Source: a virus
Length of the DNA stretch: 64,000 bases
Virus record (IMG/VR): IMGVR_UViG_3300035701_000001
Strand: one strand, 5' to 3'
A program made the position numbers and the translations under genes. This document shows positions 1,245 to 19,184 of this stretch, in pieces. The notes under the pieces are model-generated. The model did no database searches and was not told the origin of the DNA. It saw nothing but the letters and a program-made list of their open reading frames with translations. Within the stretch, counting starts at the first letter, position 1. Every line of letters begins with the position of its first letter.

Positions 1245-1303
1245 GGTCGGCTCCGTGTTATGACTCTTTCATCTTCTATCCCATCCATTGGGTAGGAGGG
1301 ATC

Positions 1304-1729: not shown

Positions 1730-1744
1730 GCTCCGGGAAGCACA

Positions 1745-3875: not shown

Positions 3876-5068
3876 ATGATTTTCCTCATGAGTTTCTTCC
3901 CAAGTTCTATGACTTCTCCCTTGTCATGTCCCTGGTCGAGCCATTGGTCCATCATCTCGGCCACTTCCTGGGGAGATCTTCCATTGAGCGGATTCTGGGA
4001 ACTGGAGGGCTCCGGATCTTCGTAGACGGATTCTTCGTATTCTTCGTCTACGTCTTCTGGAAATTCTCCTTCATCCGGGACAATGTCCTCTTCGGAGGTG
4101 TAGAAACCATCGTATTCTCCCTCGTCGTCATCTTCCGCGAGCGTATACTGGTCGTAGCCGAGATCGGGTTCTGGAGGAGTCTGGTTGACCATGGGCAATG
4201 CCCGTTGGTTCGGTGGGATGGGTAGGGAGGGATTCGAACGGACAGGCATGTTCATCAACTGGTTCACGGCGTTTCCGGCCTGCTGGTTTCCACCCGTCAG
4301 GATTCCTGATTGCATGGTGATTTTCAAGGCTTCGCCGAGGAGGTTCTGCCAGAAGGGCTGGTCCTGTCCCTGCTGTTGATTTTGCATCCAGGGAGGGGCT
4401 GCATTGACACCGCGCATGGCGTTGATGGCCGAGGCGGATGCGGCGATGACGTTGGTCGCCTGGCCGAACATCCGGGACATCATCTCATCCTTGTTCTTGT
4501 TTTCCTCGTAGAGGTGCTGGGTGAAATCATCCATTTCTCCCTTGTGTCCCGCCCCTTTGGAACCGGTGGGCAGGGTTCCGACGGCGACGGCTCCCCGGTA
4601 GCCTCCGAGGTAGGCCTTGTCCTTCTTTCGGACGATGCTCACCTCGATGTTTCCCTCGAAGGGGACGCCGATGGTCGCGCACAGCGATTTCATCAGGGTG
4701 ATGAACCCGCTTTTCCCATAGTCTTTCGTGTTCGGGTCGTAGGGGGAAGGACCGTAGTTTGCCGGGGGGGCGTTGTCGGGCATGACCTTGATGCGAATGA
4801 GCATCCGGTCGAGTTGGATGGGCCACCACTTCGGTTTTTTTCCGGAGACCAGGTCGTTGTAGAGTTCCGAGACATCTTCGATGTCCGGAGCTTCGGGAAG
4901 CCCGTCTTTGGTTCCACTGGCTTCGGCTTCATCGACTGCGTCGTGGTAGCTGGCGATGGCCAGTGCAGAGAGGACGGTTTCGTAGATGCGCTCGACGTCG
5001 ATTTCCTCGAATTCGAGCAGGGATTCCCATCCTCGGGCGGATGTGACGCTGGATTCCTTACGTGGCAT
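3872..5068 (-). CDS. Hypothetical acidic protein
   Basis: 398-aa ORF with strong GC3 codon bias, Q/N-rich middle and D/E-rich C-terminal part. Confidence 0.8.
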   Translation of the reverse strand: MPRKESSVTSARGWESLLEFEEIDVERIYETVLSALAIASYHDAVDEAEASGTKDGLPEAPDIEDVSELYNDLVSGKKPKWWPIQLDRMLIRIKVMPDNAPPANYGPSPYDPNTKDYGKSGFITLMKSLCATIGVPFEGNIEVSIVRKKDKAYLGGYRGAVAVGTLPTGSKGAGHKGEMDDFTQHLYEENKNKDEMMSRMFGQATNVIAASASAINAMRGVNAAPPWMQNQQQGQDQPFWQNLLGEALKITMQSGILTGGNQQAGNAVNQLMNMPVRSNPSLPIPPNQRALPMVNQTPPEPDLGYDQYTLAEDDDEGEYDGFYTSEEDIVPDEGEFPEDVDEEYEESVYEDPEPSSSQNPLNGRSPQEVAEMMDQWLDQGHDKGEVIELGKKLMRKII

Positions 5069-6101
5069 CGGGGAGAGTCTCCTGGGCGTGGGACTGGATG
5101 AGTTCGATGGCTTGTACCGGGGTGATCCAGGTCAGCCCGTGCCGTTCTGCGAATTGTTTGCGAGCTTCGACATCGGGGGGTTCGGCATAGCCGTTGTCGT
5201 AGAGGTTGCACCGGATGGCGGATGAGGCACATCCCATCATGCGGACTCCGTGTTCTTCGAGGTCTTCGAAGATTCCACGGAGCTTGGCACCTGAGGTGGG
5301 GTAGAGGTGTAGATCGTAGTTTCCTGCCGATCCTTCGATGGAGTAGCAGTAGGGGAACGGTTGTTCGACGACTCCCTTCTCATCGAGGGAGAAGTAGTGG
5401 GAGAAGACGTTTCCGAATCGGTTCTTGCGGATGGAGAGTCGTCGGAGTCCGGTCATGTCGTCGGGAATGTCGGCCAGCACGTCGACGAGGTGGCGAAGCT
5501 GGTTGGGTCCGAGAACATCTCCGTCTTTCGTGTACTGGGCGATGAAGATGCCTCGGGCTCGTGCGGCCTGGATCCGGTTGATGGCTGCCTTCATGACGTG
5601 GGTCGATTCCCAGGAGGTTGCAAGCTGGGAGATCGAGTCGACGACGATGAGGTCGTCTTTTTCGAGTCCGATGAGATCTTCTTCGAGTTCTTCCCACGTG
5701 TTGATCATGGAGAAGCGGGGGACGGGTGCCATGGGGTTGTGCTGTCCCACCACGCGGTTCCAGGAGGAGAAGACCATCTGGATCTGTTGTTCGGAGGACA
5801 TGTACCGGGTTGGGTTGGTCTTGAGCGCGATGGTCGTTTTTCCGGAGCCTGCATTTCCAGAGAGCAGGATGGTTCCTCCATGTTCGAGCTTGAGATGGGA
5901 CCAGGGGTGTGGAAGTGCCGGTGGATCTTCCAGGTCTGAGTATTTCCGGTTGGGGCGAGCCCTGCGGCTGTCGAGGTCGTTGTTGTTGCATCTTGGACAG
6001 GTGTGGACTTCTGGATCCAGGATGGGAAGCGTGCAGTTGTAACAGACCCGGTGGGGTTCGATGGCCAGGCTGTTTTGAATTTCGCTCTTATTTCCTTCCA
6101 T
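5058..6101 (-). CDS. radA: RadA/Sms-like ATPase lacking the Lon-like C-terminal domain
   Basis: Zn finger CYNC..CPRC, Walker A SGNAGSGKTT, Walker B LIVVDSISQL, TKDGDVLGPNQLRHLVD, and the RadA signature KNRFG. Confidence 0.85.
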   Translation of the reverse strand: MEGNKSEIQNSLAIEPHRVCYNCTLPILDPEVHTCPRCNNNDLDSRRARPNRKYSDLEDPPALPHPWSHLKLEHGGTILLSGNAGSGKTTIALKTNPTRYMSSEQQIQMVFSSWNRVVGQHNPMAPVPRFSMINTWEELEEDLIGLEKDDLIVVDSISQLATSWESTHVMKAAINRIQAARARGIFIAQYTKDGDVLGPNQLRHLVDVLADIPDDMTGLRRLSIRKNRFGNVFSHYFSLDEKGVVEQPFPYCYSIEGSAGNYDLHLYPTSGAKLRGIFEDLEEHGVRMMGCASSAIRCNLYDNGYAEPPDVEARKQFAERHGLTWITPVQAIELIQSHAQETLPDAT

Positions 6102-6433: not shown

Positions 6434-6862
6434 ATGTTCGATGCATGGGCAATCGCGGGCGTTGGCGGCGGATCTGCAGCGCTGACCTACCTGGCATGCG
6501 GCTGGAAGCAGACGAAGGATGGCAAGCAGTGCATGCGCCTGTCCCTGGACGAGGGCTGCAGTCTCCTGGGTGACGTCCGTCTCCTGGGCGGCATCGGCAC
6601 GGGCATCGCGTCGATGTACGTCGGAGGTGCCGACACCAAGAAGGCCCTGCAGACCGTCTGCGCGGCAAGCCTGCTTTCGCTGGTCCAGACCGAGGTCATC
6701 CGGTGGCGTCTCGCCAAGCAGGGGAACACGGGCGTGGCGGAGAAGCTCCCCATCTTCCCGTCGGTCTTCCAGAAGGCCACCGAGGGGGCCTACGGCGCGC
6801 TTCCCGGCCCGCAGGCCTCGCACTCGACCAGCCAGCGCCAGTCGGCCTGGGCTCGTCGCTGA
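6434..6862 (+). CDS. Small hydrophobic putative virion/membrane protein
   Basis: GGAGAG RBS; strong GC3 bias; Gly/Ala-rich hydrophobic segments; GAYGA near the C-terminus. Confidence 0.8.
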   Translation: MFDAWAIAGVGGGSAALTYLACGWKQTKDGKQCMRLSLDEGCSLLGDVRLLGGIGTGIASMYVGGADTKKALQTVCAASLLSLVQTEVIRWRLAKQGNTGVAEKLPIFPSVFQKATEGAYGALPGPQASHSTSQRQSAWARR

Positions 6863-6953
6863 TCTTCGGATCTCCGGACAGGGCGGGGGATGACTCCGCC
6901 CTACGATGACATCTTCATCCACAAGACGCCCTTCGGGGCAAGAGGACACAACC

Positions 6954-7754
6954 ATGGAACAGTACGGAGGATTCCTCGGAATCCACACCAACCCGCAGGC
7001 ACGGCTTGCACAGATCGATGGGAAGCTCGCAATCGAACTGTCCAAGCCCTCCGGTGCCCAGCGCACCCAGAAGATCGCCCGCCTCATGGGGCTGCGTGAC
7101 AAGGTGCTCGCGAAGGTCGCCGCCCGCAAGGGCGCCGAACTCGCAGCGGCCTCCATCCCCGGCCTGGCCGGTGGACTGGCCAGCAGCGGCATCCGGGGCA
7201 TGGACGTCATCGAACACGAGTTCTCCCCCGAGGTCGTTCGCCAACACAACCTCGAAGGCGCGGCCCAGGGCCTCCGCCAGATGTCCGTCGCCCCTCCGGG
7301 CTCCGGCCGCCTGGTCCCGATCCCCTTCGTCACGTCCGCGAGCACGGTCCCCGTTCACGTCGTGACGGGTGGCGGTGGTGCGCTCGGTGCCGCAGTGGGC
7401 AACCTGCAGACCGAACCGGTGAACTGGGCGGTGCTTCGCATCGTCGCGCTCACCACGCAGACCATCGCGGCGGCCACGGGCGTCGTCGGCGTCATGCAGG
7501 ACTTCAAGATCGGAGGCAGCCCCAACCTGTTCCTCTCCGAGAACTGGGTCCTGATGGACGACTACGACACCGACAAGGAGCAGTTCGCAGGGCTCCGCGC
7601 GTACCCGGTCCTCATCAGCCCGAACATCGCCTACGTCACGACCAACACGTGGGCCCCAGCGGGTCAGAACCTGTACTACGCCGTCAGCCTCGTGACCGAG
7701 GTTCTCCGCGACGACGCCTTCGGACCGGGCCTTCCCGGCGGATACGCGCGGTAG
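6954..7754 (+). CDS. Candidate major capsid protein (single-jelly-roll-like, beta-rich C-terminal domain)
   Basis: AGAGGAC RBS, extreme codon bias, flanking hairpins; about 140-aa alternating-hydrophobic beta domain; clear paralog at 55866-56645; fold is inferred, not searched. Confidence 0.55.
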   Translation: MEQYGGFLGIHTNPQARLAQIDGKLAIELSKPSGAQRTQKIARLMGLRDKVLAKVAARKGAELAAASIPGLAGGLASSGIRGMDVIEHEFSPEVVRQHNLEGAAQGLRQMSVAPPGSGRLVPIPFVTSASTVPVHVVTGGGGALGAAVGNLQTEPVNWAVLRIVALTTQTIAAATGVVGVMQDFKIGGSPNLFLSENWVLMDDYDTDKEQFAGLRAYPVLISPNIAYVTTNTWAPAGQNLYYAVSLVTEVLRDDAFGPGLPGGYAR

Positions 7755-7759
7755 ACACT

Positions 7760-7848
7760 GCGCTCTGGAGGAATCAACCCCTCCAGGCGCGGGTCCGCCC
7801 CGCGAGCCGAACAACAACGGGGTCGGGGTGAAAGCCTCGGCCCCGTTG
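7760..7848 (+). terminator. Two stem-loops downstream of the capsid candidate
   Basis: GCGC(T)CTGGAGG/CCTCCAGGCGC at 7760-7790; 15-bp stem with GAAA tetraloop at 7815-7848; only a short T run follows. Confidence 0.6.
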
Positions 7849-7903
7849 CCGTTTCCAGATCGGTTTCGAATCCTTCTTCCATTCTTTTTCTCTGGGGAAG
7901 TCC

Positions 7904-9172
7904 ATGTCGGGAACCAGCGCAGTCAGCAACCAGCATCCACGGTATGGATTCACCGAGCAGAGGATGTATGCGACCCTGCCGGGCAGTGGTCTCTCGAATG
8001 TCAATCCGACCGGGGCATCGTTCGAACGTCCTCCCGGTGTCGGGACCGTGGCCGTCGTCGGAGTTTCGACCGCACTCGCAGGCGGTGCCCAGGTCAACAT
8101 GATCCTGGAAGGGTCGAACGACAACGTGAACTTCCTGGTTCTCGCCCAGCTTGCGGTGGCGGACTCCTTCACGGTGGCCGTTCCCCCTGGTCCCGCAGAG
8201 ACGAAGGTCCTGAACGCGGCGGTCGATCAACAGGTCGATGTCCAGCGGTTTGCCTACCTGCGTGTGCGTACGTTCTCCCCAGGGGGTACCTACGCCATCA
8301 ACGTGGTTGTGACGGGCATCGCGCTCGACTCCGAGAAGTTCATCTATCGGTGGAACTTCGGTCGTCTTGGTCTTACACCGACGTTCCAGAACGGTCTGGT
8401 CTACATCCGTCCGGCTGGAACGAAGTTCACGAACGTCCAGGTTTCTGCGACCATCGTGAACCTGGGGGGCATCCTCGGGTTCAACTTCATCCTGCAGGGA
8501 TGTCCGAACTACGTCGCCGGGTCCCTTGCAAATATCTGGGTGGATCTCTCCTCTGTTTTCGTGAACGGAGTCGGCTCCTACTTCCTGCAGCAGAACGGCA
8601 CCACGGAGATGGATCTCGGGAGCTACACGCACTTCCGGGTGCGTGTGATCGACGATCCGACCAATCCTCCGGGACCTCTCACGGCGTACATTGCCAGTGT
8701 CTACCTCACACTCGACTCGATGGACTGGGTCGATTCCCAGGAAGCGGCGAGTGGAGGAGGGGGTGGGGGAGGTATCGCAGACAACGCTCTGCTGAACGCG
8801 ACATTCGGGGCACCGGGTCCCGAGGTCGGCAACACCATCCCGGTCGACCTCTACCTGCTCGATGTCGCGGGAAATCCGCTTCCGGGGTCTCGCCGGGTCG
8901 AATGCCTCCTATACGATACTCCGAATGCGGGGGACCTCGATCTCGCGACGAACGCGGTGTTCTCGGCGGTCGGAGGCGGGGCTGTCGCCATCAGTGGCAT
9001 CGGCACGAACCGGGTCGTTCTCACGACGGACGCAACGGGGCATGCCATCCTCTCGGTTCTCGATGCAGCCGTCGAGTGGGTCTACCTCACGGCGGTCACG
9101 CCCAAGGGGCCCCTCACGGACCCGACCATCGTCTACAAGTCGCAGCAGTCGGCGCTGCAGTTCGTGCCGTGA
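7904..9172 (+). CDS. Putative spike/receptor-binding protein (beta-sandwich repeats plus Ig-like domain)
   Basis: Beta-rich; repeated ILEGSNDNVNF / ILQGCPN motifs; SGGGGGG linker; C-terminal VDLYLLDVAGNPLPG..TTDATGHAILSV resembles bacterial Ig-like (Big) domains. Confidence 0.6.
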   Translation: MSGTSAVSNQHPRYGFTEQRMYATLPGSGLSNVNPTGASFERPPGVGTVAVVGVSTALAGGAQVNMILEGSNDNVNFLVLAQLAVADSFTVAVPPGPAETKVLNAAVDQQVDVQRFAYLRVRTFSPGGTYAINVVVTGIALDSEKFIYRWNFGRLGLTPTFQNGLVYIRPAGTKFTNVQVSATIVNLGGILGFNFILQGCPNYVAGSLANIWVDLSSVFVNGVGSYFLQQNGTTEMDLGSYTHFRVRVIDDPTNPPGPLTAYIASVYLTLDSMDWVDSQEAASGGGGGGGIADNALLNATFGAPGPEVGNTIPVDLYLLDVAGNPLPGSRRVECLLYDTPNAGDLDLATNAVFSAVGGGAVAISGIGTNRVVLTTDATGHAILSVLDAAVEWVYLTAVTPKGPLTDPTIVYKSQQSALQFVP

Positions 9173-9207
9173 TCTAGTTGAATCCTCGAATTTTCTAGGG
9201 ACAGTCC

Positions 9208-10338
9208 ATGATCCATCCGTATTTCAACCTCACGGGCGACGAGGCCAGGGGGCTGTTGTACGGGCTGCTCGAAGTGGACAAGATCCAGTTGAAGGCGAAT
9301 CCTTCGATGCCTTCGATCCGGAAGTTGATTCAGGAAGGCAGTATTCGTTACGAGCGGTCGGATCCTCAGGAACACTGGCAGTCCTACCGGGAACTCGTCG
9401 AACAGGTCCAGCAGGGCGGGGTCGGGTACGGGGATTGCGAGGACTTCGCCCCGGCAATTGCAGCCGAGGATCAGGTTCGACGTGGATTGAAATCAATTCC
9501 TGTGGCGTATACCCCTAAAGAAGGACTGTTTCACGTGGTGACAGCGGTTCCGACTTCGGGGGCGTCCTATGGAGTCACCCGGTTTCCAGACGCCCTCGGG
9601 GCTCCCAGGATGTCTGGGTATGTCCTCGAAGATCCTTCGGCAGCCGCAGGGATGGAAACCTTTGGGAGTACCGGGGTTCGTGGCAAGTCGGTGGGAGAGG
9701 CGAGGGAGCGGTTTGGTGGGATGCGGGAATTCCGGGAATTTTACGGAATAAAGGATGGTTCTTCCAAGTACACTCCTTCTCGTATCCTGGTCGAATCCGC
9801 GATGGGGCTTGCCGCCATCGAGGCGGAGGACTTTGGAAGGGCCGAGGAACTGGCCCGGAAGGTCTCCTCGATGCTCCGTGACATCCGAAAGCGCATGCCA
9901 GGCTATGACATCGATCCGGATACGCAGGAATTGCTGGAATGGTACGCCGATTTGTCGAGGGGTGAGGACACGGGGTACGAAGTCGAGTTTCCCGAGGATT
10001 CTGGTTTTGGAGCGATGGACAGGGGGGGAGAAACCCTGCGGGTGGATGCCGAATACCGGGATCGGTTGCGTCGACTGGGGGGGCAGGGGACCTGGTCTAC
10101 ACCCGTTGTCTCGATGTACTTTCGGGTTCGCAGGACAGTCCGTATCGGGCAGGGGTGTTTGATCCCCTCGTCTCTCTTGGACTTCCCTGTTCGTTCCGTG
10201 AAACCGGCTCCGAGTTCTATCGAGGAATTCGCTGGTTGTTACGGTTCTCTTTCGCTGTTTGGAGATCCGTTGCGGGACATCGAGGAACTCGATGACCTGG
10301 AACTCATGGATGAACCTGGAGTTTTTGAAGAGGATTGA
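9208..10338 (+). CDS. Transglutaminase-fold cysteine protease, candidate virion maturation protease
   Basis: GDCEDFA (Cys), FHVVTAV (His), LEDPS (Asp) in papain-like triad order; sits inside the structural cluster. Confidence 0.7.
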   Translation: MIHPYFNLTGDEARGLLYGLLEVDKIQLKANPSMPSIRKLIQEGSIRYERSDPQEHWQSYRELVEQVQQGGVGYGDCEDFAPAIAAEDQVRRGLKSIPVAYTPKEGLFHVVTAVPTSGASYGVTRFPDALGAPRMSGYVLEDPSAAAGMETFGSTGVRGKSVGEARERFGGMREFREFYGIKDGSSKYTPSRILVESAMGLAAIEAEDFGRAEELARKVSSMLRDIRKRMPGYDIDPDTQELLEWYADLSRGEDTGYEVEFPEDSGFGAMDRGGETLRVDAEYRDRLRRLGGQGTWSTPVVSMYFRVRRTVRIGQGCLIPSSLLDFPVRSVKPAPSSIEEFAGCYGSLSLFGDPLRDIEELDDLELMDEPGVFEED

Positions 10339-10412
10339 ATTAGAATCGAGGAGAGGTCCGGGTGCCGGAAATGGGTGGCCGGACTATGTTTCCCCCTGGA
10401 GGACATCTGACC

Positions 10413-12758
10413 ATGTACGGAGCATCGGACATCTACAACTCTCCCCTGTCTCGCAAGGAAATGTTCGGGGTCGAGGGTGGCATCTTCGTGGGAGGGATCA
10501 AGTCCAGGAAGGCACGGATCGAGCGTCTCTGTGACAAGATCAAGGGCTTCGTTTCGAAGACCGATCCGGATGCAGGGCCTGCGAACCTCAACGTGAAGAA
10601 GGTCACGAAGTGGGCAGGCAAGATCTCCAAGCACGTCGGAAAGGTGCTTGAAAAGGAATCGTCCTGGAAGGTTTCTCCGACGGTTCAAGCCATCCTCGAC
10701 TTCAGCAACTCGAAGGACTTCGAACAGCTTCACCAGGACCTCGGATTCTCGGTGGGTGGGGCTCGTTCTGCGGCGGAAGATGTCTCCGAGGCGGGGGAGT
10801 ACGCTCCCGAGGAAGATACCTACCAGGACATCGAGCGCAGTGCCTGGGAGGATCCCTACTCCATGGCCGAGTATGGCCCAGAAGGAGGGTATACCACTCC
10901 CGAGGGGACCTACGTGGCTCAGGGCTTCCCGACCGCCTCGCAGTACTACGAGCAGTACCCCTCCGCGTTCCAGACGGGTCCCTCCTACCCGTCTCCGCTC
11001 TACCCGCGCTGGAACCGGTGGGCGGAACGGCATCCGCACAAGGCCTATGCATTGACCCATCCGCATCGAGCGGCTCGCCAGGCGGCTCGTCATGCGGCTC
11101 GGCAGTCGGCCTATACCTATCGTCCCACCACGCACGCGATGCCGATGCGGAGGGCGGGTCCGATCTCTCGCGGAGCCGGACTCCGGGGAGCCGGACGTCG
11201 GTTCGGTGGAGTCGAGGGGGCGATCTACGCAGGTGTGGGCGATGCTTTCGATCGGGTGGACCTCTTCGGAAAGAAAGACACTCGTAGCCACGATGAAATC
11301 TGGCGCGAATTTGCGGCAAAGAACCCGAGGAAGGCACTCAAGATGTTGGAAGACATTCGTCAACGTGGGGAAGGATCTGCAGAATCGCGTCGTGAAAGAG
11401 GGCGTGTCTTTGACTTGTGGGCCTCTCGTCATCCGAAGAAGGCACACAAGTACATGATGAAGATGAAGGAAGAAGCAAGGGAAAGATCAGAGGAACGGGA
11501 AGGGTTTTCCGGTTTCTTGGATGAGTCCATCTATGCGGGGGTGGGCGATGCGATGGATCGCCAGGACCTGTTCGGTGGACTGCAGCGCACCGATCTGTTC
11601 GGTGGACTGCAGCGCACCGATCTCTTCGGTTCGGCCACGGGCATGGATCCGACCATTGGGCTCGGATCGTTCATGCCCATTCGCGAGAACCAGAGCCTCG
11701 ACCGGCTCGACACGCTCTTCGAGGACTTCGAGGAGTCGGACGAGGATGCGGCTCTCCTGGACCTCGACCTGGATGACGAGTCTGGGGAACTGGAAGAGGT
11801 GGGCTTCCGCCCTGGTCGTGGCAGGCGGGGACCCGGTCGCATGGCCCGTATGGAATCTCGTCAGCAGCACAAGCTCGGCAGGGCTCAGCTTCTCCGTGAG
11901 AAGGCAGCCGCCATGGCGGCCACCCATCCGCGCCGGGCGGCTCGGCTGAATTGGCTCGCGGATCTGGCCGAGAAGCGCGCAGGGCGGATCGAACAGCACC
12001 AGCAGCAGATCGAATCTCGCAGAGGTACGGCGGCCTACGGGGCCCTGACCTTCTGGCAGCAGCACGAAGCGGCTCGTACCGACCAGATCGAGGCGGCTCT
12101 GCAGGCAGCGGATCCCGCTTCCCTCGATTCCATCAGCGCGCTCGTCGAGCACTACTACAACAACACGAATGATCCGGACGACCGGGTCCAGCGCAAGATG
12201 GACAAGCTGGCCGAGAAGATCATGGGCCGGCTCGGGGCCACCTGGCAGCCGATGGATTACGAGACCCAGACGGCGTTCAACACGGGAGCTTCTGCCTTCG
12301 AGGCGGCGACCAGCGATGTCGAGCACCTGGCTTCCTACGGTTTCCTCGCCCGTGACGTCGCCCGTCGTCTGACCCGTCTGCAGCGTGAGTACGCCCAGGT
12401 TCGCCGGGCGGGTGGCAAGAACGCGGAAGAGAAGGCCGAGAAGATCCTCGGGGAGATCGCGGTTCTCTCGAAGCGCATCGAGGCCTTGAAGGCCATGCCG
12501 AACGTCGGGGTGATGGGGCAGGAGTCCAGTGCTCCCTATGCTCCCATGCGGACGCCCGAGGAATTGGGCGATGGATCCCAGGCCGAGCCCAGGGCTTCGT
12601 ATGCGCCGACGGACGAGGAGATCTCCAGGGCCATTCAGCCGAGGAAGGTACTTCCCTTCGGTGTGGGCGAGGATGTTCCGGACGATCCCGAGGTGGATCA
12701 GTTGGAAGAAGACGAGGATTGGGATGATCTCAACGTGTCCAGCCTCGGTGGTGACTAG
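10413..12758 (+). CDS. Large modular virion protein / candidate core polyprotein
   Basis: GGAGGAC RBS; MYG start; alternating basic and acidic modules; internal repeats; strong codon bias. Confidence 0.8.
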   Translation: MYGASDIYNSPLSRKEMFGVEGGIFVGGIKSRKARIERLCDKIKGFVSKTDPDAGPANLNVKKVTKWAGKISKHVGKVLEKESSWKVSPTVQAILDFSNSKDFEQLHQDLGFSVGGARSAAEDVSEAGEYAPEEDTYQDIERSAWEDPYSMAEYGPEGGYTTPEGTYVAQGFPTASQYYEQYPSAFQTGPSYPSPLYPRWNRWAERHPHKAYALTHPHRAARQAARHAARQSAYTYRPTTHAMPMRRAGPISRGAGLRGAGRRFGGVEGAIYAGVGDAFDRVDLFGKKDTRSHDEIWREFAAKNPRKALKMLEDIRQRGEGSAESRRERGRVFDLWASRHPKKAHKYMMKMKEEARERSEEREGFSGFLDESIYAGVGDAMDRQDLFGGLQRTDLFGGLQRTDLFGSATGMDPTIGLGSFMPIRENQSLDRLDTLFEDFEESDEDAALLDLDLDDESGELEEVGFRPGRGRRGPGRMARMESRQQHKLGRAQLLREKAAAMAATHPRRAARLNWLADLAEKRAGRIEQHQQQIESRRGTAAYGALTFWQQHEAARTDQIEAALQAADPASLDSISALVEHYYNNTNDPDDRVQRKMDKLAEKIMGRLGATWQPMDYETQTAFNTGASAFEAATSDVEHLASYGFLARDVARRLTRLQREYAQVRRAGGKNAEEKAEKILGEIAVLSKRIEALKAMPNVGVMGQESSAPYAPMRTPEELGDGSQAEPRASYAPTDEEISRAIQPRKVLPFGVGEDVPDDPEVDQLEEDEDWDDLNVSSLGGD
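11565..11630 (+). repeat. 27-bp in-frame tandem repeat (DLFGGLQRT x2 + DLFG)
   Basis: GA(C/T)CTGTTCGGTGGACTGCAGCGCACC at 11565-11591 and 11592-11618, partial third copy. Confidence 0.95.
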
Positions 12759-12761
12759 ACC

Positions 12762-12998
12762 ATGAACGGAGCGATCCGCTGCGTGGATGCCCACGGCAAC
12801 CCGATGGACTTCTGTCCGGTCGGGGTGCCAGGGGCTGCAGGGGATCGCTCCGGGGTCCGTCCCGGTTTCACCACGTTTGGTGGCTATTCTCCTGACCCTC
12901 TCCGGGATCGTGGGTACGAGTACAACAAGGCCGGGTATCTGCAGGGTAGCTACGATTCCTGGCGTGCACAGTTCCAGCGGTGGAGAAACCCACGATGA
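12762..12998 (+). CDS. Small hypothetical protein of the structural cluster
   Basis: 78 aa; fills the gap between coupled neighbours; ATGA overlap with the next gene. Confidence 0.65.
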   Translation: MNGAIRCVDAHGNPMDFCPVGVPGAAGDRSGVRPGFTTFGGYSPDPLRDRGYEYNKAGYLQGSYDSWRAQFQRWRNPR

Positions 12999-14473
12999 GC
13001 CCGAAGCTTGACGATGTAGATGAGTTCGACATCTCGAAGGAAACCCTGTACGTAGGGGATCCAGACGAGAGCGAAGACGAGGACGAAGAGGAAGACAAGG
13101 ACAAAGCCTTGCTGGAAGCTTTGTTCAGTGATTCCTCTGACCCTTCGGCTGACGATTCCTTGGACGAGGAGATCGACTCTGCCCTGTCGGACGAGTCCCC
13201 TACACAGAGACTGTGGGAGTTTCCGGACGAATCCCTCAACGTTCAATCATTTGAACACCAGGAGACCCGCAAGCCCAAGGTGAGTCGCCGTGCATTTGCT
13301 TCCGATGCTCGCCGTTCGATGGACGTTTCCCATGAGGAATCCTATGGGCTCGGCTACGAGTCGGGCTACGTGCAGGCCCTGAAGGATATGGGCGTCGAAG
13401 GGGATACCCTATGGGATGCCTACGGCGGACTCGTGAAGAAGGGCATCCAGGGAGCAGGTGGTATCTTCTCCTCGGCAGCCCGTGGGTTCCTCGGGACCAC
13501 TCCCAAGGAAGCTGCGAAGGAACTTCGTGGAGAAGTCGGCAAGGAACTCCAGGGACAGATCCGCAAGCAACTCGGTGTGGCTGGCAAGCCGACCCAGATG
13601 GCCGAAGAATTGGGCAAGCAGTTGCGCCAGCAGGCCCTTGGGGTTGTCGAGGCGGATGAGTCGACACTTCCCCCCGTGTACGTGGAGGACAAGGAGGGGT
13701 TCGAGGAGGACCTGGCACTCGATGAAGGGTCCGAACCCATCGAACTGGACGACAGCCTTCTGGTCCAGGAAGAGTTCGGGGCGACGGCGAAGCACGGGTT
13801 CTTTGCGAGTCAGCCCCGGCATCGCATCCGGGAAGCTGCGAAGAAAGCGATGATCGGTGGGCAGGCATCTCTCAAGACGGCCACTCCGTCGGGTCCTGCT
13901 CCTTTCGTCGAGGATCCCGAGGCGGCTCCGAAGCTCTACTCGACCGGTCGGATCGTGGATGCGGTCTACGGGGAGATGAGCCTGGTCCCGTGTCCGTCCT
14001 GCAGCCGGATCCCCGAGAAGTTTGCTGGGATGGGCAAAGCCGAGAACTGTCTGGTCTGCACGCAGTACGGGGCCATCCTGATTCCGAAGTCCGACATCAG
14101 CCACTACGTGGCTTCGACGAGCTACGGTATCTTGCCTTTGCTCGTGGCAGCGGTTTCCTCAGCCACCCCGAAGATCATGGAACAGGCTTCGAAGGGAAAG
14201 CTTTTCCCGAAGGCCATGGCCAAGCTGAAGACCTGGCTGTCCGGCAAGAAGGCCAAGACCGAGGCACTTCCCTCTGATTCCAGTATCGATCTCGATCTGG
14301 ACAAGGAGAGCGAGGAAGAGTCCGAGACGGATCCCTATGACATCTCTGGAGTCGAAGAGATGTTCGGTGGAGTCGAGGAAGAACCAGAAGAGGACGTCGA
14401 GGAACAGGATCTTCCGGAGGAGTATGGGGTCGTCCGTGCTCTCGTTCCGAGTCGGTACCGGTTCAACCGGTAG
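12995..14473 (+). CDS. Acidic modular virion protein with CxxC..CxxC and a pX-like peptide
   Basis: D/E-rich ends; eight [YF]G sites; CPSC..CLVC; SYGILPLLVAAVSS. Confidence 0.8.
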   Translation: MSPKLDDVDEFDISKETLYVGDPDESEDEDEEEDKDKALLEALFSDSSDPSADDSLDEEIDSALSDESPTQRLWEFPDESLNVQSFEHQETRKPKVSRRAFASDARRSMDVSHEESYGLGYESGYVQALKDMGVEGDTLWDAYGGLVKKGIQGAGGIFSSAARGFLGTTPKEAAKELRGEVGKELQGQIRKQLGVAGKPTQMAEELGKQLRQQALGVVEADESTLPPVYVEDKEGFEEDLALDEGSEPIELDDSLLVQEEFGATAKHGFFASQPRHRIREAAKKAMIGGQASLKTATPSGPAPFVEDPEAAPKLYSTGRIVDAVYGEMSLVPCPSCSRIPEKFAGMGKAENCLVCTQYGAILIPKSDISHYVASTSYGILPLLVAAVSSATPKIMEQASKGKLFPKAMAKLKTWLSGKKAKTEALPSDSSIDLDLDKESEEESETDPYDISGVEEMFGGVEEEPEEDVEEQDLPEEYGVVRALVPSRYRFNR

Positions 14474-14483
14474 GAGGGGCTCC

Positions 14484-14852
14484 ATGCGTTACGGTGGATG
14501 TACCTACGGGATGCGGGCTCCACGGCTCGGGGGAGGGGGGGGCGCTCACCCCATGATGACTCCACGTTCCTTTGGTTCTCCCCGTTCCTTTGGTTCTCCT
14601 CGTGGAATCGGAGCTTTTCCTCGTCTGGGGGGTGGGATTCATCCCCATCGGTTTCCTCCTTTTCACAGGGGGACTGGACGTGCCTGGTTTCATCCACGCC
14701 GTCGGTTTGTTCCGACGTACTACTCCCCAGGCTCTTACTGGGCCTATCCGTGGTATGTCCATCCCGTGGATGAAATTCCCTATGAAGTGACGGAACTGGA
14801 TCTCGATGAGTTGTCGGATCAGGCGGTCTTGGAGCTTGGATTTTCCGGATAG
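14484..14852 (+). CDS. Small Arg/Gly/Pro-rich protein with acidic tail
   Basis: AGGAGG RBS; MRYGGCTYG; PRSFGS tandem repeat (18 bp x2 at 14565-14600). Confidence 0.7.
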   Translation: MRYGGCTYGMRAPRLGGGGGAHPMMTPRSFGSPRSFGSPRGIGAFPRLGGGIHPHRFPPFHRGTGRAWFHPRRRFVPTYYSPGSYWAYPWYVHPVDEIPYEVTELDLDELSDQAVLELGFSG

Positions 14853-14862
14853 GAGCAGGAAC

Positions 14863-15645
14863 ATGAATCGGTGGTACGGTGATCAATACGGTGCGGTGCG
14901 GATGCCTTTCCGTCCCTCGGTTCGTTCGGGTGTTCTCTCCGGGAAGACTCCTCTGTCGACCGCCCGGTACCCGAACTTGATGTCCCGGATCCGGCAGGCA
15001 GCCTCTGCTCGCCAGGGATCGTCTCTCGTTCCTCCGCTTGCTCCTGGATCGTCTGGATGGGAAGGCCTGTCCCCGCAGTGGGCGGCCAGTCCCTATGCGG
15101 CTCCCGAGTATGTTCCCGAGTCTCCGGAGTACCAGGAGCCGGTGGAGATTCCCGAGGAGTTCTTCGACGATCTCTCCGAACAGGCACTCTATGACATTGG
15201 ACTCGGGGGGAGCCAGGTGCCGCTGGAGGAGATGGAGGAATTCGGATTCTTCAGCCCGGAACGTCTGAAGCGAGACAAGGTTGAAACCAATGGGGTACCT
15301 CACAAGGGAGCAGAGCTTGCAGCCGCTGGCTACGGCTCCATGCAGACGATGGATCCCTCCCATGGTCGTCGCCTTCCCATCCTCGCTTCTCATGCGCGGG
15401 CCATGGGTTCTTCCCAGAGGGGCCCCGATGAGCGTGCGAGGGAACGGCGGGGCATCATCGATCGGTTTGGATTGGAAGTTCCCCGTCCGGAAATCCTTCC
15501 TTCCTCCTACCGGACCCCGGTGGTCGATACGCGTCCTGACATGTCGTTCGAATCGAGTTTGAAGATGGGAGCGGGGATCGCAGTCGGTTTCCTGGCGGTC
15601 GGTGGGATCGCTGCTCTGCTGGGACATGCTTTTTCGGGACGGTGA
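14863..15645 (+). CDS. Putative virion membrane protein (C-terminal TM helix)
   Basis: AGGA RBS; MNRWYGDQYG; C-terminal GAGIAVGFLAVGGIAALLG. Confidence 0.8.
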   Translation: MNRWYGDQYGAVRMPFRPSVRSGVLSGKTPLSTARYPNLMSRIRQAASARQGSSLVPPLAPGSSGWEGLSPQWAASPYAAPEYVPESPEYQEPVEIPEEFFDDLSEQALYDIGLGGSQVPLEEMEEFGFFSPERLKRDKVETNGVPHKGAELAAAGYGSMQTMDPSHGRRLPILASHARAMGSSQRGPDERARERRGIIDRFGLEVPRPEILPSSYRTPVVDTRPDMSFESSLKMGAGIAVGFLAVGGIAALLGHAFSGR

Positions 15646-15693
15646 ACGTTCCGCGTGATACGAATTCCGAGTAACCTTGCACAAGAGGACACC

Positions 15694-16722
15694 ATGGCCA
15701 CACAACCTCCGTACAACGCCTTCGACGACATCTTCGACGACGAGAACCTGAATCTCGATCTCGAATTGGAGGACATCGACACGGACTCCCCGTACTACGG
15801 TGCCGGAGACGACGATGATCTTCCCGCACTCGAAGCCGAGGTGGATGCCGAGACGTTCGGACAGGAATCGGAGATCGAGTCTCCGGAAGACATCGAGTGG
15901 GCTTCCACCCCGTGGAGTCTGCCCGAGGCCGAAGAGACCTCCGAGGAGCAGTCCCAGTTCGCGGAGCCGATGGCCCAGGGCAACGTCGAGGATCTCTTCG
16001 AACTCGGCAACGTGCTGCTGCCGACCGCCTACCAGGACGGAACCCTCGAAACCCTCGTGAAGTGGGCGACGAGTTCGTTCGGTGGGGACGATGCGCGCGG
16101 TATCGTGACTGCCATGCAGGACATGAAGAACCCCTCGCTCGCGGACTGGAAGTCCATGAACGAGTCCCAGCGCGAGACGTTCGTGATGGACGCCATCAAG
16201 CGCGCGGCGATTCCCGGAATCCCGTTCCGTTCCTGGGACAAGCTCCAGGATGCCTGGAACCAGGGGAACGGACCCATCAACACCGCCTGGAAGCTCGTCA
16301 CGACCACACCGTCCGCGCTGTGGAGCCTCGTGTCTCGTGACTTCCCGACGCTGACCGCCGCCTGGATCGACGAGGTCATGCCGATTCCCGGTGTGGAACT
16401 GACCCGGCACGAGGTCCTGAACCAGAAGGCCATGTTCTACTGGTTCCTGGAGATGCTCGGCTACGACGTCGTCAAGGGAATCGCAGCCCAGATGACCGTG
16501 TACTTCGATCAGTACGGCTATCCCACCCCGGTGGGCGAGCAGGCCTTCGAGGTCCCGTCGACCGAGGTCGAGGTCGAGGAAGGGGGCGAAGCGTTCTTCC
16601 CCGGTCCCGCGATGGAGATCGCACCGCCCAGGGCCGAGTCGGTCCTTCCGCGTCCGCAGACCATCCTCGCGTTCGGATACGGGCTCATGATCGCCGGGTC
16701 GCTCACGGGCCTGATCAAGTAG
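15694..16722 (+). CDS. Putative abundant virion membrane protein (C-terminal TM helix)
   Basis: AGAGGACACC RBS; extreme codon bias; acidic N-terminus; C-terminal ILAFGYGLMIAGSLTGLI. Confidence 0.8.
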   Translation: MATQPPYNAFDDIFDDENLNLDLELEDIDTDSPYYGAGDDDDLPALEAEVDAETFGQESEIESPEDIEWASTPWSLPEAEETSEEQSQFAEPMAQGNVEDLFELGNVLLPTAYQDGTLETLVKWATSSFGGDDARGIVTAMQDMKNPSLADWKSMNESQRETFVMDAIKRAAIPGIPFRSWDKLQDAWNQGNGPINTAWKLVTTTPSALWSLVSRDFPTLTAAWIDEVMPIPGVELTRHEVLNQKAMFYWFLEMLGYDVVKGIAAQMTVYFDQYGYPTPVGEQAFEVPSTEVEVEEGGEAFFPGPAMEIAPPRAESVLPRPQTILAFGYGLMIAGSLTGLIK

Positions 16723-16728
16723 GTCCCG

Positions 16729-16965
16729 ATGGGCGCTCGCCCACGATATGGCTCTGCGACCGCTTCTCCTGTCGAAGTTCTCGACCGTGACCAGGTCATG
16801 AAAGAGAGTTTTCGCAGGGAGGCGGTCGAGTCACTTTCCCAGCAACTCGCGGCGGAGCGCCAGGAGCAGGCCGGGATCGGCCAGGCGGAGACCCTCACCG
16901 CGTTGCTCGTGACGACCGTGGTGGGCCTTGCGGTGTTCTCTGCGCTCACGAAGGGGGGGAAATGA
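16729..16965 (+). CDS. Small membrane protein
   Basis: 78 aa; C-terminal LTALLVTTVVGLAVFSAL; RYG near the N-terminus. Confidence 0.75.
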   Translation: MGARPRYGSATASPVEVLDRDQVMKESFRREAVESLSQQLAAERQEQAGIGQAETLTALLVTTVVGLAVFSALTKGGK

Positions 16966-17570
16966 CTCGCAAGGTACGGTACGGGCAGTCTTCTCTCGCA
17001 GCGTACGTTCCGGGGCTCCGTTCGTCTCCCGTGGATCAACACCTCGTTCGACCCCGTTCGAGTCCAGAGGGGCATCGGGGAATCGAGTTGACGATGTTTC
17101 CGCCTCAGGATGAGGTCCTGGGCGAGATCGAAGGGGACCTTGACGAGGACGAGGAGGAATTCGTCTTCGAGGAGGAGGATTCGGATATTCCGGATGAGCC
17201 CCTGAGCCCGATCGATGGATTCCTGGAGTCGATGTTTGAGATCCCTCCTTCTTTCGGGGTTCTCTACCCTTCGGCACCCTATGCGAAGCCGATGCCGAGG
17301 ACGCATGCGGATTCGGCTGTTCTCCGGACTCAGTCTGGATTCACTGGATATCGAGGGGCACGGGACCGTTTCCTCATCCCGCCTGCCGAGTCGGCTTCCT
17401 GGGATCCTTCTCTCTCTCCTCCGGGTTCTGCTCCACAGGAACCCGAACAGGAGACCTACGGCAAGTTTCCGGAGTCCTTCGAGTACGGGGGGGGATACGA
17501 GGGGAAAGCCCTCGCTTTGCTCGGTCTTGTGCTGCTCTATCGCATGGCGACCTCGGGGGAAGGCGAATAG
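16962..17570 (+). CDS. Putative membrane protein (C-terminal TM helix)
   Basis: ATGA-coupled; acidic middle; C-terminal ALALLGLVLLYRMA. Confidence 0.75.
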   Translation: MTRKVRYGQSSLAAYVPGLRSSPVDQHLVRPRSSPEGHRGIELTMFPPQDEVLGEIEGDLDEDEEEFVFEEEDSDIPDEPLSPIDGFLESMFEIPPSFGVLYPSAPYAKPMPRTHADSAVLRTQSGFTGYRGARDRFLIPPAESASWDPSLSPPGSAPQEPEQETYGKFPESFEYGGGYEGKALALLGLVLLYRMATSGEGE

Positions 17571-17594
17571 ATTTCCCCGTAGAGGACATTGACC

Positions 17595-18773
17595 ATGGCG
17601 AAGTACAGGGACCTGAGTGAATACGGTGGGATGATGCCGACACGGAGTTCGGCGGGGTTCATCCGCCGGTCGGGGATCCCGGAGATCCGTGGGGTTTCCC
17701 CCACTCCGTCTTTTCCTGACGATCCCCGTCTGAGGGGGTTGACCCCCGAACAGCTTCGCGGATCCCCTCTTCCCGATTCGACTACCCTTGCGGGCCGTGC
17801 CTACTCGGTGATGACGCCGGATCCGTACGCCGAAGTGGTCCGCCGGGAACTGGAGATCGGCAGGCGGTTGCCGAGGCCGTACCAGGCTCCGACGGCTCTG
17901 GCAGGCAGGCGGCTCATGCCGACCGAGTACTACGAATCGAACTACCAGCCACTCGACTCCGAGCGTGCCATCTATCCGGCTGCGGACATCGCAGGACGGC
18001 GTTCGACGCTTTCGGGGACCTTCGGCCAGGACATCGCCCAACCGATGCCGTGGTCTGCCCGAGAGCAGATGGGGTATACCGAGTCCCGGTCTCGGGGTCC
18101 CGGTCTCTCCAGCGAGTGGGACACACAAGCTCACCGGGAACGCATGTCGGGCAAGGTCTCTGCTCCAGGGACCTTTTCCCAGAGGGTGGATCCTCGGTAT
18201 CCGTTCTTCCATGTCATGGCGAAGGGAGATGGGACGGGTCTTCCGGAAGGGTATGCCTCTGCGGGAAATGCACGGGTCAAGGTGACGGTGGGTCGGTTCG
18301 AGACGGGGGGTGCGACGACCAGCCGGGAGTTCTACGTCGGAGGAGGGTTTACCGGGTTCTTCGATCTGCAGGGATGGGATCAACTGACCTTCGAGGTGGT
18401 CTACATCTCCCCCGGAACGGTCGTGGAGTTTTCCTGGACCACCACGGCGATTCAGGCGGGGAACAAGACCCTGTACTACCTCGAAGTACTGCACAATGGT
18501 GTAGGAAGTATCCAGCCTGTTCCCGAGGGAGCCTATTCGGTGATCGTCAACAAGATGGTGGGCTGGACTTCTGGATCGTTTTCCTGGTGGACGGACATCG
18601 GGGGTATTCCTACTTCTCTCATCATTCGGTTTGATGATGGAACCACAGGGTTGGTAAACCAGTTTGGAACACCGATTCCCGTGGCTGGAACGATGTATGC
18701 CCCTCCGGTCATCGTCGGGGGGGGGGTGGCTGGGCAGGACGTACCTGTCCTGTGGAATCTCCGTCCGATCTAG
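17595..18773 (+). CDS. Putative minor capsid/vertex protein (P/R-rich N-half, beta-rich C-half)
   Basis: AGAGGAC RBS; SEYGG near the N-terminus; about 190-aa aromatic beta-strand-rich C-terminal domain. Confidence 0.7.
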   Translation: MAKYRDLSEYGGMMPTRSSAGFIRRSGIPEIRGVSPTPSFPDDPRLRGLTPEQLRGSPLPDSTTLAGRAYSVMTPDPYAEVVRRELEIGRRLPRPYQAPTALAGRRLMPTEYYESNYQPLDSERAIYPAADIAGRRSTLSGTFGQDIAQPMPWSAREQMGYTESRSRGPGLSSEWDTQAHRERMSGKVSAPGTFSQRVDPRYPFFHVMAKGDGTGLPEGYASAGNARVKVTVGRFETGGATTSREFYVGGGFTGFFDLQGWDQLTFEVVYISPGTVVEFSWTTTAIQAGNKTLYYLEVLHNGVGSIQPVPEGAYSVIVNKMVGWTSGSFSWWTDIGGIPTSLIIRFDDGTTGLVNQFGTPIPVAGTMYAPPVIVGGGVAGQDVPVLWNLRPI

Positions 18774-18785
18774 GAGATTTTCAAC

Positions 18786-19184
18786 ATGTTCGTCGATTCT
18801 TACCTGCAGGATCTTCTTCAAGCCACTCCAGAGGAACTGGAATCTTTGACTCAGGCTTCCGAGTCGTTCGGTGGGCTGTGGAGTCCTCGTGCATTGCGGA
18901 AGCGGATGCTTCCCGAGCGCAGGGCCCGTGACGAGTTGATGGCCTGGTTTCGCGCAAGCGATGTCCCTGTGATTCCCCATGACAGTCCCCGCCTGGACAC
19001 CCCTCTCTGTTCCGTGATCGTCGCTTTGTCGAACCTGACGAGGGATCTTGCGGATGATGCGGAGCAGAAGGCCCTGGAACTCGCCTCTCGGTACGATATT
19101 GCCTGTCACATCTCGTCGAAGGCGGGGTCTCTTGTCTTCTCGTTTGGCAAGACCCCAAAGATCGCGGCCTCGTTGCTCGGCTGA
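18786..19184 (+). CDS. Hypothetical protein, last gene of the structural run
   Basis: AGGAG RBS; 132 aa; ESFGGLW. Confidence 0.75.
   Translation: MFVDSYLQDLLQATPEELESLTQASESFGGLWSPRALRKRMLPERRARDELMAWFRASDVPVIPHDSPRLDTPLCSVIVALSNLTRDLADDAEQKALELASRYDIACHISSKAGSLVFSFGKTPKIAASLLG

What the first reader, a model, noticed from the sequence alone, without database searches (positions are those of the whole stretch)
6434..19184. Structural module of a candidate large non-tailed, membrane-containing bacterial virus
Fourteen co-oriented, tightly coupled genes, several with extreme codon bias and a shared GAGGAC RBS. They include a jelly-roll-like protein, an Ig-like spike, a beta-rich vertex candidate, four membrane-anchored proteins and a cysteine protease. 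No terminase, portal, HK97 or tail gene is seen. Known single-jelly-roll prokaryotic viruses (P23-77, SH1 types) have genomes of a few tens of kb at most. Here the module sits with DnaE, NrdJ, ThyX and an exonuclease in at least 64 kb, which would be a much larger, replication-autonomous lineage.
Basis: inference. Interest (0 to 1): 0.92.

Follow-up and report, generated by a model that had tools for sequence, protein, structure and literature searches.

The report
Orphan jelly-roll particle module, huge phage-like genome
A conserved 13-gene block with no known relatives sits at one end of very large (100-385 kb) phage-like genomes found in many waters and sediments; it looks like a new kind of virus-particle building kit, but whether the virus lacks a tail could not be decided.

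Summary
The block is real. It holds 13 solid and 1 doubtful co-oriented genes at 6434-19184, and none matches Pfam or PHROGs.

- 6954-7754 is a helical arm plus an eight-stranded jelly roll.
- 7904-9172 is two tandem jelly rolls plus a Big/Ig domain.
- 9208-10338 starts with a transglutaminase-fold Cys-His domain.
- Three, perhaps four, proteins end in a transmembrane helix.
- [YF]G dipeptides are twice as frequent as expected, in this block only.
- A second, divergent jelly-roll paralogue lies at 55866-56645.

The module is conserved in at least 40 metagenome contigs. Seven are long (104-385 kb), and in each of them it lies 2.5-8 kb from a contig end. It has no relative in GenBank phages, IMG/VR, PLSDB or GTDB genomes.

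Best reading: a particle-building module of a new lineage of huge bacterial viruses. The "non-tailed" claim is open, at about 0.2.

The parts
1745..2809 (+). DUF726-type alpha/beta hydrolase. It is the outermost conserved gene of the locus, next to the contig end.
   Evidence: Pfam DUF726, E 2.7e-6. Conserved in at least 7 loci. It is the first gene on several long contigs.
3872..5068 (-). Conserved 398-aa protein of unknown fold, with Q/N-rich and acidic regions. It overlaps the end of the ATPase gene.
   Evidence: Conserved in 11-13 loci at 23-39% identity. No Pfam or PHROG hit. The ESM Atlas model is poor.
5058..6101 (-). RadA/Sms-like RecA-fold ATPase (N-terminal zinc ribbon, Walker A, KNRFG motif, no Lon domain). 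It is transcribed divergently from the module.
   Evidence: PDB RadA, E 1.7e-5. Weak Pfam KaiC/AAA_24/AAA_25 hits. PHROG Sak4-like, E 1.1e-7. Motifs were read. Syntenic in at least 19 loci.
6434..6862 (+). First module gene: a 142-aa glycine-rich, hydrophobic, basic protein.
   Evidence: ATG at 6434 after an AT-rich divergent intergenic region. Conserved in 18 loci at 31-59% identity.
6954..7754 (+). Jelly-roll protein of 266 aa: an N-terminal [YF]G motif, a basic helical hairpin and an eight-stranded jelly roll. It is the best conserved and most codon-biased gene of the module.
7755..7903 (+). Two GC-rich hairpins followed by a U-rich stretch, just after the jelly-roll gene. Possibly an attenuator or a transcript stabiliser.
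   Evidence: RNA fold -76.1 kcal/mol, z -5.0, with 0 of 200 shuffles as stable. Not called by the terminator scan.
7904..9172 (+). 422-aa protein with two tandem jelly-roll domains (16-141 and 143-272), a poly-Gly hinge and a Big/Ig domain (293-422).
9208..10338 (+). Transglutaminase-fold cysteine protease domain (residues 1-150) fused to a disordered tail rich in [YF]G.
   Evidence: Invariant D76-C77-E78-D79, H109 and E55-H56-W57 in 19 sequences. ESM Atlas feature score 0.95-0.96; Transglut_core clusters at TM 0.61-0.65. 10 [YF]G dipeptides against 3.5 expected.
10362..12758 (+). 798-aa charged, low-complexity, helix-rich protein; a candidate substrate or scaffold.
   Evidence: No family hit. 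11 [YF]G against 5.2 expected. Poorly conserved.
12762..12998 (+). 78-aa protein.
   Evidence: An ORF with coding-type composition. L032 carries an 85-aa gene at the same position.
12980..14473 (+). 497-aa very acidic protein (net charge -48) with a CxxC...CxxC ribbon and a short hydrophobic peptide.
   Evidence: Sequence read. Conserved in 7 loci at 30-37% identity. Orthologues carry 1-2 hydrophobic helices. 8 [YF]G against 2.4 expected.
14572..14790 (+). Doubtful 72-aa hydrophobic ORF (an alternative frame is 14498-14773).
   Evidence: Weak coding score. Not checked in relatives.
14806..15645 (+). Tail-anchored membrane protein, 279 aa.
   Evidence: C-terminal transmembrane (TM) helix at 254-272, Kyte-Doolittle (KD) score 2.13. 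Orthologues in L032 and L013 end in the same way.
15655..16722 (+). Tail-anchored, very acidic membrane protein (probable start at 15694). Second most codon-biased gene of the module.
   Evidence: GC3 0.83. C-terminal TM helix; net charge -45.
16729..16965 (+). 78-aa tail-anchored membrane protein.
   Evidence: TM helix at 55-73, KD 2.11.
16962..17570 (+). 202-aa acidic protein with a weak C-terminal hydrophobic segment.
   Evidence: Below the KD threshold here. The L032 orthologue passes, at 253-271.
17595..18773 (+). 392-aa protein with a disordered R/P-rich N-terminal half and a beta-rich C-terminal half. Its fold was not determined.
   Evidence: Sequence read. Orthologues in L032 (36% identity) and L019 (28%). 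Unrelated to the jelly-roll family.
18786..19184 (+). Last module gene, 132 aa. It is followed by convergent genes on the - strand.
55866..56645 (+). Divergent paralogue of the jelly-roll domain, 48 kb away.
   Evidence: hhalign against family alignment A1: probability 94.7%, E 6.1e-8, 106 columns. BLASTP alone gives only E 0.034.

Best explanation
The block is most likely the particle-building (virion morphogenesis) module of a so far undescribed lineage of very large bacterial viruses.

Proposed mechanism:
- The genes are transcribed rightward from the AT-rich divergent region at about 6100-6430.
- The jelly-roll protein (6954-7754) is made in the largest amount, as an abundant shell or shell-associated subunit.
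- The tandem jelly-roll/Big protein (7904-9172) is an outward-facing, fast-evolving surface or host-contact protein.
- The large acidic, disordered proteins and several N-termini carry [YF]G sites.
- The module's own papain/transglutaminase-fold cysteine protease cuts these sites (aromatic at P2, Gly at P1) during maturation.
- The three or four tail-anchored proteins and the small glycine-rich protein sit in a membrane. That membrane is either a lipid layer of the particle or the host membrane during assembly or entry.

Shown: the genes, their folds, the conservation, the motif enrichment and the position at a contig end.
Inferred: virion association, the cleavage, and the role of each part.
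Not decided: whether the shell itself is built from the jelly-roll protein or from an HK97-type protein encoded in the unread 140 kb.
For: 1. The replicon is virus-like. The same 64 kb holds DnaE, NrdJ, ThyX, a DnaQ-like exonuclease, DUF3310, an M23 peptidase and an SLT lysozyme.
2. The module is an evolutionary unit. The same gene order, from DUF726 through the RadA-like ATPase, small protein, jelly roll, tandem jelly roll/Big and protease to the acidic proteins, recurs in 29 JGI loci and further ENA/Logan contigs.
3. The jelly-roll protein is the most conserved gene: 58-75% identity in the loci compared, against 42-53% for the ATPase and 28-40% for the next gene. It has the strongest codon bias and is followed by a very stable hairpin pair. 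This is the usual profile of a major structural protein.
4. The folds are of the kinds used in virus particles: a jelly roll whose best matches include SPV1, SPMV, HHIV-2 and SH1 capsid proteins, and tandem jelly rolls plus a Big domain.
5. A dedicated Cys-His protease domain is present. [YF]G is enriched twofold in this module only, 57 observed against 29.1 expected, while other window proteins show 42 against 43.4. A [YF]G lies at the same N-terminal place across the 13-sequence alignment of jelly-roll homologues.
6. The C-terminal membrane anchors are conserved.
Against: - ESM Atlas look-alikes of the jelly roll are unnamed proteins.
- No packaging enzyme of any type was found in the window. 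The neighbouring ATPase is RadA/Sms-like, a recombination type.
- No expression, proteome or particle data exist.
- Jelly rolls, Big domains and membrane anchors also occur in cell-surface and secretion systems.
- Only 31% of the contig was examined.
Confidence: 0.55

Rival explanations
1. Refinement A: a tailed huge phage. HK97 capsid, portal, terminase and tail genes lie in the unread 140 kb. This block encodes accessory virion parts: a jelly-roll cement or decoration protein, a Big-tipped head or tail fibre, internal or ejection proteins with membrane-inserting ends, and a processing protease.
For: - All known bacterial viruses above 100 kb are tailed (established knowledge).
- The nearest ESM Atlas clusters of both the jelly roll and the protease domain are labelled Uroviricota.
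- Acidic processed internal proteins are known from phiKZ-type phages (established knowledge).
- An unchecked first-stage note reports S/G/A-x-E leaders in a paralogue array of this contig, which is the T4/phiKZ prohead-protease motif.
Against: - No hallmark family was found in the 64-kb window or in 89 ORFs around the module in 7 relatives.
- Contigs of 104-232 kb from JGI metagenomes that carry the module are absent from the IMG/VR copy, although the same peptide patterns find them in the metagenome collection.
- No relative of the jelly-roll protein occurs in 50,697 phage records.
Confidence: 0.35
2. Refinement B: the first reader's reading. This is a non-tailed, membrane-containing virus whose shell is built from the jelly-roll protein, with the 55866 paralogue as a second shell or vertex protein. 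7904 is the spike and the tail-anchored proteins sit in an internal membrane.
For: - There are two jelly-roll paralogues.
- Three or four membrane proteins lie inside the module.
- No tailed-phage hallmark was found in the window or in relatives' flanks.
- The lineage is invisible to the phage and IMG/VR collections.
Against: - No FtsK/HerA/A32-type ATPase was found; the syntenic ATPase is RadA-like.
- The paralogue is 48 kb away, not adjacent as in P23-77- and SH1-type viruses.
- 7904 is not a rigid double jelly roll.
- No known jelly-roll shell packages 200-385 kb in bacteria.
- 69% of the contig is unread.
Confidence: 0.2
3. Not a virion module. The block is a membrane- or envelope-associated apparatus of a giant linear extrachromosomal element or phage, for example for host-surface remodelling, exclusion, adhesion or transfer. 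It is kept at the genome end together with a RadA-like recombination ATPase.
For: - The module always lies at a contig end next to a recombination-type ATPase.
- One homologue cluster (P0175) is listed with the sources 'ncbi' and 'gem'.
- Jelly-roll, Big and tail-anchored proteins are common in surface systems.
- No packaging or capsid hallmark was found anywhere examined.
Against: - The strong codon bias and top conservation of one small jelly-roll protein, a built-in protease with an enriched cleavage-like motif, and phage-type nucleotide metabolism and lysins on the same contig fit a virus better.
- No relative in 72,556 plasmids or in GTDB species genomes.
Confidence: 0.2

Closest known systems
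P23-77 / SH1-type viruses (Helvetiavirae: Sphaerolipoviridae, Matsushitaviridae, Simuloviridae)
   Different: Those genomes are 16-31 kb, against at least 204 kb here. Their ATPase is FtsK/HerA-type, while this one is RadA/Sms-like. Their two capsid genes are adjacent, while these are 48 kb apart. There is no sequence similarity, and the structural scores are not specific.
Sulfolobus polyhedral virus 1 (Portogloboviridae) major capsid protein
   Different: SPV1 is an archaeal virus of 20 kb. Sequence identity is 7%. The score is tied with PHM and satellite-virus coats.
Jelly-roll cement or decoration proteins of tailed phages (BPP-1, KHP40, Pam1)
   Same: Small, abundant jelly-roll proteins encoded in head modules. 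They appear among the matches of both models.
   Different: Those proteins sit on an HK97 lattice whose gene is normally adjacent. No HK97 gene was found here. This protein also has a long basic helical arm and a conserved C-terminal DDxFGPGLPGxYA tail.
Cysteine-protease maturation of large DNA viruses (adenovirus adenain, ASFV pS273R, poxvirus I7; cleavage after Gly-Gly or Ala-Gly)
   Same: A virus-encoded papain-superfamily protease, and small-residue P1 sites repeated in several structural precursors and polyprotein-like proteins.
   Different: The fold here is transglutaminase-like, not Ulp1/adenain-like. The motif is [YF]G. Cleavage has not been shown. Those hosts are eukaryotes.
phiKZ-type jumbo phage inner-body proteins and prohead protease
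   Same: A huge genome, many acidic virion proteins processed at a short repeated motif, and paralogue families.
   Different: phiKZ uses a serine protease that cuts after S/A/G-x-E, and it has recognisable HK97 capsid, portal and terminase genes. There is no sequence relation.

Membership tests
Helvetiavirae (P23-77/SH1-type single jelly-roll viruses) | Major capsid proteins with a single, vertically oriented jelly-roll barrel | tested here: inconclusive
Helvetiavirae (P23-77/SH1-type single jelly-roll viruses) | Two capsid-protein genes adjacent to each other and to an FtsK/HerA-type packaging ATPase gene | tested here: not met
   The second paralogue is 48 kb away. The adjacent ATPase is RadA/Sms-like, with a zinc ribbon and a KNRFG motif.
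Bamfordvirae (double jelly-roll capsid viruses, PRD1/PM2/STIV type) | [quoted passage not shown] | tested here: inconclusive
Bamfordvirae (double jelly-roll capsid viruses, PRD1/PM2/STIV type) | A32/FtsK-HerA-type genome packaging ATPase | tested here: inconclusive
   None was found among the window ORFs scanned with Pfam (about 50) and PHROGs (77). 140 kb of the contig was not examined.
Caudoviricetes (tailed phages) | HK97-fold major capsid protein, portal and large terminase | tested here: inconclusive
   No such Pfam or PHROG family in the window or in 89 ORFs of 7 related loci. Only two proteins were folded, and 69% of the contig is unread.
Transglutaminase-like cysteine protease superfamily (PF01841 clan) | Cys-His-Asp triad on a papain-like core, with Cys in a G-x-C-x-x-F/L-A context | tested here: inconclusive
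   Invariant C77 in G/A-D-C-E-D-F/L-A, invariant H109, and a QDPS Asp in the full-length members. ESM Atlas structure matches to Transglut_core clusters at TM 0.61-0.65. No Pfam HMM hit and no PDB sequence hit.
RadA/Sms | N-terminal zinc finger, RecA-like ATPase with a KNRFG motif, and a C-terminal Lon-like domain | tested here: inconclusive
   The zinc ribbon, Walker A and KNRFG motif are present, and PDB RadA matches at E 1.7e-5 over residues 75-250. The Lon-like domain is absent: the protein ends at residue 347. It is RadA-like but not a full member.

The most novel reading that the evidence does not exclude
A widespread, undescribed lineage of bacterial viruses has linear genomes of 100-385 kb and builds a non-HK97, jelly-roll-based, membrane-containing particle without a tail. 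The particle is matured by a transglutaminase-fold protease at [YF]G sites. This would be a bacterial counterpart of the large membrane-containing eukaryotic viruses and a new high-rank virus group.
Probability: 0.2. Interest if true: 0.95.

Novelty: new variant of a known kind. Interest (0 to 1): 0.7.

Why it matters
All 13 solid genes of the module lack any Pfam or PHROG family. Yet the module is conserved on contigs of 100-385 kb from marine sediment, groundwater, lakes and the ocean. None of these is present in the phage, plasmid, IMG/VR or species-genome collections searched.

At the least, this defines a new lineage of huge phage-like genomes that standard virus detection appears to miss. 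It also supplies a marker protein, the jelly-roll family, with which to find them.

If the shell proves to be jelly-roll-based, the rule that large bacterial viruses are always tailed HK97 viruses would fall.

The [YF]G motif together with the transglutaminase-fold protease is a directly testable new maturation system.

Tried and rejected
- **Packaging-ATPase reading of 5058-6101.** Rejected in favour of RadA/Sms-like.
- **Sequence searches of the jelly-roll family and the protease domain against PDB sequences.** Only coiled-coil noise or nothing.
- **BFVD and ESM Atlas fold searches of the jelly-roll model.** Only weak or unnamed matches.
- **hhalign of the jelly-roll family against 17595-18773 and against the 7904 family.** No relation.
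- **Searches for relatives.** Nothing in GenBank phages by DNA or protein, in PLSDB, in IMG/VR or in GTDB genomes. One IMG/VR contig (L036) holds a 25%-identical transglutaminase-like gene among replication genes, which is a different context.
- **Attempts to read the rest of the contig.**
  - No genome is held for the window.
  - An exact 40-mer is absent from the viral and JGI collections.
  - Metagenome records cannot be searched by handle.
  - Look-ups of window proteins returned only 6-18 kb contigs from other assemblies of these sequences, without DNA.
- **Terminal repeats.** No conserved end sequence among contig ends and no inverted terminal repeat in L024.
- **ESM Atlas search for 3872-5068.** Uninformative.
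- **Complex prediction.** Not used, because a homo-oligomer result would not separate the hypotheses.

Full report
**What is in the sequence**

The window is a high-GC (0.50-0.63) stretch with genes on both strands. From 6434 to 19184 there is an unbroken run of + strand genes with gaps of -19 to 149 nt. It starts after an AT-rich divergent intergenic region and ends where convergent - strand genes begin at 19186. Thirteen genes are solid; the small ORF at 14498-14790 is doubtful.

Third-position GC is 0.84 for this gene and 0.83 for 15655-16722, against 0.64-0.76 for their neighbours. The 'shared GAGGAC RBS' is an ordinary Shine-Dalgarno-like sequence and is not enriched. None of the 14 products matches Pfam or PHROGs.

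**The jelly-roll protein**

An exhaustive phmmer search found 120 cluster representatives. Only the C-terminal 110-170 residues are shared by all of them, and this region always lies at the C-terminus of proteins of 230-700 aa. With an 81-sequence alignment, AlphaFold2 gave pLDDT 82.6. The model has a helical hairpin (30-82), two short helices and a beta sandwich at 136-270.

So the fold is an eight-stranded jelly roll. Viral coats are at the top, but within the range the tool itself calls non-specific. A profile comparison shows that 55866-56645 carries a real, divergent copy of this domain (probability 94.7%, E 6e-8). BLASTP alone gave E 0.034.

**The other parts**

- **The first 150 residues of 9208-10338.** They are conserved in 21 loci, with invariant DCED, His109 and EHW. 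Their nearest ESM Atlas clusters include Transglut_core clusters at TM 0.61-0.65. This supports a papain/transglutaminase-fold cysteine protease, although no HMM or PDB sequence hit exists.
- **C-terminal hydrophobic helices.** They end 14806, 15694 and 16729, and weakly 16962. The same holds in orthologues on two other contigs.
- **[YF]G dipeptides.** They occur 57 times in the module against 29.1 expected from composition. In 25 other proteins of the window the count is 42 against 43.4. In the jelly-roll family a [YF]G sits at the same place, between acidic N-terminal segments and the basic helices. Aromatic P2 is the classical preference of papain-like enzymes (established knowledge). This makes [YF]G-directed processing a reasonable but untested inference.

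**Context and relatives**

The window also holds:
- DnaE (34% identity or less to any phage DnaE), NrdJ, ThyX and a DnaQ-like exonuclease;
- DUF3310, DnaJ, an HTH protein and a dual-specificity phosphatase;
- an M23 peptidase, an SLT lysozyme and nucleotide kinases.

The ATPase transcribed divergently from the module has a zinc ribbon, a Walker A motif and the KNRFG motif. It matches RadA in the PDB (E 1.7e-5) and Sak4-like PHROGs. It is recombination-type, not FtsK/HerA/A32-type.

The jelly-roll family has no relative in 50,697 phage records, 72,556 plasmids, the IMG/VR copy or GTDB species genomes. The same peptide patterns, however, found 29 loci in JGI metagenomes. The word-index search found 62 further clusters from JGI, ENA, Logan and Tara. 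Gene order from DUF726 to the acidic proteins is conserved. The jelly-roll gene is the most conserved member: 58-75% identity, against 42-53% for the ATPase and 28-40% for 7904.

**An unexpected regularity**

The contig holding the window is 204,502 bp. Homologues lie on contigs of 385,225, 231,512, 141,709, 120,941, 106,390 and 103,560 bp. In every one of them the jelly-roll gene is 2.5-8 kb from a contig end. An independent Logan assembly that carries an identical copy of gene 258-1244 also stops about 100 nt outside that gene. The window very probably starts at the contig end too, because all other first-stage notes lie beyond its 3' end. The ends share no sequence. This points to a physical genome terminus, or to a universal assembly break next to a variable region.

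**Hallmark genes**

No terminase, portal, HK97 capsid, sheath, tube or baseplate family was found in any of these sets:
- about 50 window proteins scanned with Pfam;
- 77 window ORFs scanned with PHROGs;
- 89 ORFs from seven related loci scanned with both libraries.

Two 'tape measure' PHROGs hit one window ORF that the summary does not identify. The M23 or SLT lysin domain is the likely cause, but that is an inference.

These scans cover the same genomic neighbourhood in all the genomes. The remaining 140 kb of this contig could not be reached. The JGI contigs of 104-232 kb are missing from the IMG/VR copy. That is indirect evidence that marker-based virus detection does not recognise them, but the copy may be a subset.

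**Weighing**

- **Virion module (0.55).** A virion-building role best explains four things together: the expression and conservation profile of the jelly-roll gene, the particle-type folds, the built-in protease with its enriched motif, and the phage-like replicon.
- **Non-virion apparatus (0.2).** A membrane apparatus of a giant linear element remains possible.

**Earlier notes of this scan**

The notes on the same contig described the paralogue, the protease, the tail anchors, the [YF]G motif, the two-sandwich/Ig protein and the hairpins. I tested these and they hold as observations. Notes on tRNA, tmRNA, a Cas12f-like gene and paralogue arrays further along the contig gave context only and were not checked.

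Noticed in passing
window 1-2000; L013, L032, L038, L045, L046 starts: On every long contig that carries the module (104-385 kb, seven contigs including the window's own), it lies 2.5-8 kb from a contig end. An independent assembly with an identical copy of gene 258-1244 breaks at the same place. The ends share no sequence. The first 200 nt of the window hold three ACGCGC-containing repeat units, and L013 starts with short G-rich tandem repeats. This may be a physical genome terminus.
   Followed up: partly
window 24557-29578 (+): The NrdJ reading frame is 1673 aa long. The reductase domains start only at residue 542, the barrel domain matches in two stretches, and a TSCPD domain lies at 1469-1569. 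The first 540 codons overlap a strongly codon-biased gene in another frame (24831-25967, GC3 0.86). A wrong upstream start and an insert or intein in the barrel are both possible.
   Followed up: no
window 36209-36928 (-): This 239-aa protein has the highest codon-adaptation score in the window (GC3 0.80) and has no Pfam or PDB match. It ends an operon with a GP88-family protein, an SLT lysozyme and an M23 peptidase. It is probably another very abundant protein of unknown role.
   Followed up: partly
proteins P0007-P0034; alignment A2: A distant branch of the jelly-roll family has 350-700-aa proteins. In these, long poly-Asp/Glu runs, one or two [YF]G motifs and a very basic Arg/Lys coiled coil precede the jelly roll. 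The pattern fits an acidic propeptide followed by a nucleic-acid-binding arm.
   Followed up: no
L022, L024, L025 (freshwater contigs, GC 0.66-0.69); L026, L028 (GC 0.38-0.39): In distant relatives the protease domain is a free-standing 135-aa protein, not fused to a disordered tail. L028 has a 299-aa gene at the expected jelly-roll position, while the detected jelly-roll homologue is a second gene further on. This lineage may also have two paralogues, here close together.
   Followed up: no
L015, L017, L031 (record names 'Hain-H43-01um', 'Hain-H51-01um'): Several related contigs carry sample names that suggest a 0.1-um filter fraction of groundwater. If so, the carriers pass 0.2 um, as large virus particles or ultra-small cells would. 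This reading of the names is my inference.
   Followed up: no
window 5058-6101 (-): A RadA/Sms-like ATPase that lacks the Lon domain is kept divergently next to the module in at least 19 loci. It is overlapped at its end by a conserved 398-aa Q/N-rich protein. Why a recombination-type ATPase is fixed at this genome end is unexplained.
   Followed up: partly
L036 (IMGVR_UViG_3300025518_000002) 9917-10501: An ordinary low-GC phage contig carries a 25%-identical transglutaminase-like protein next to helicase and exonuclease V genes. The protease domain family therefore also occurs in conventional phages, outside any structural block.
   Followed up: partly
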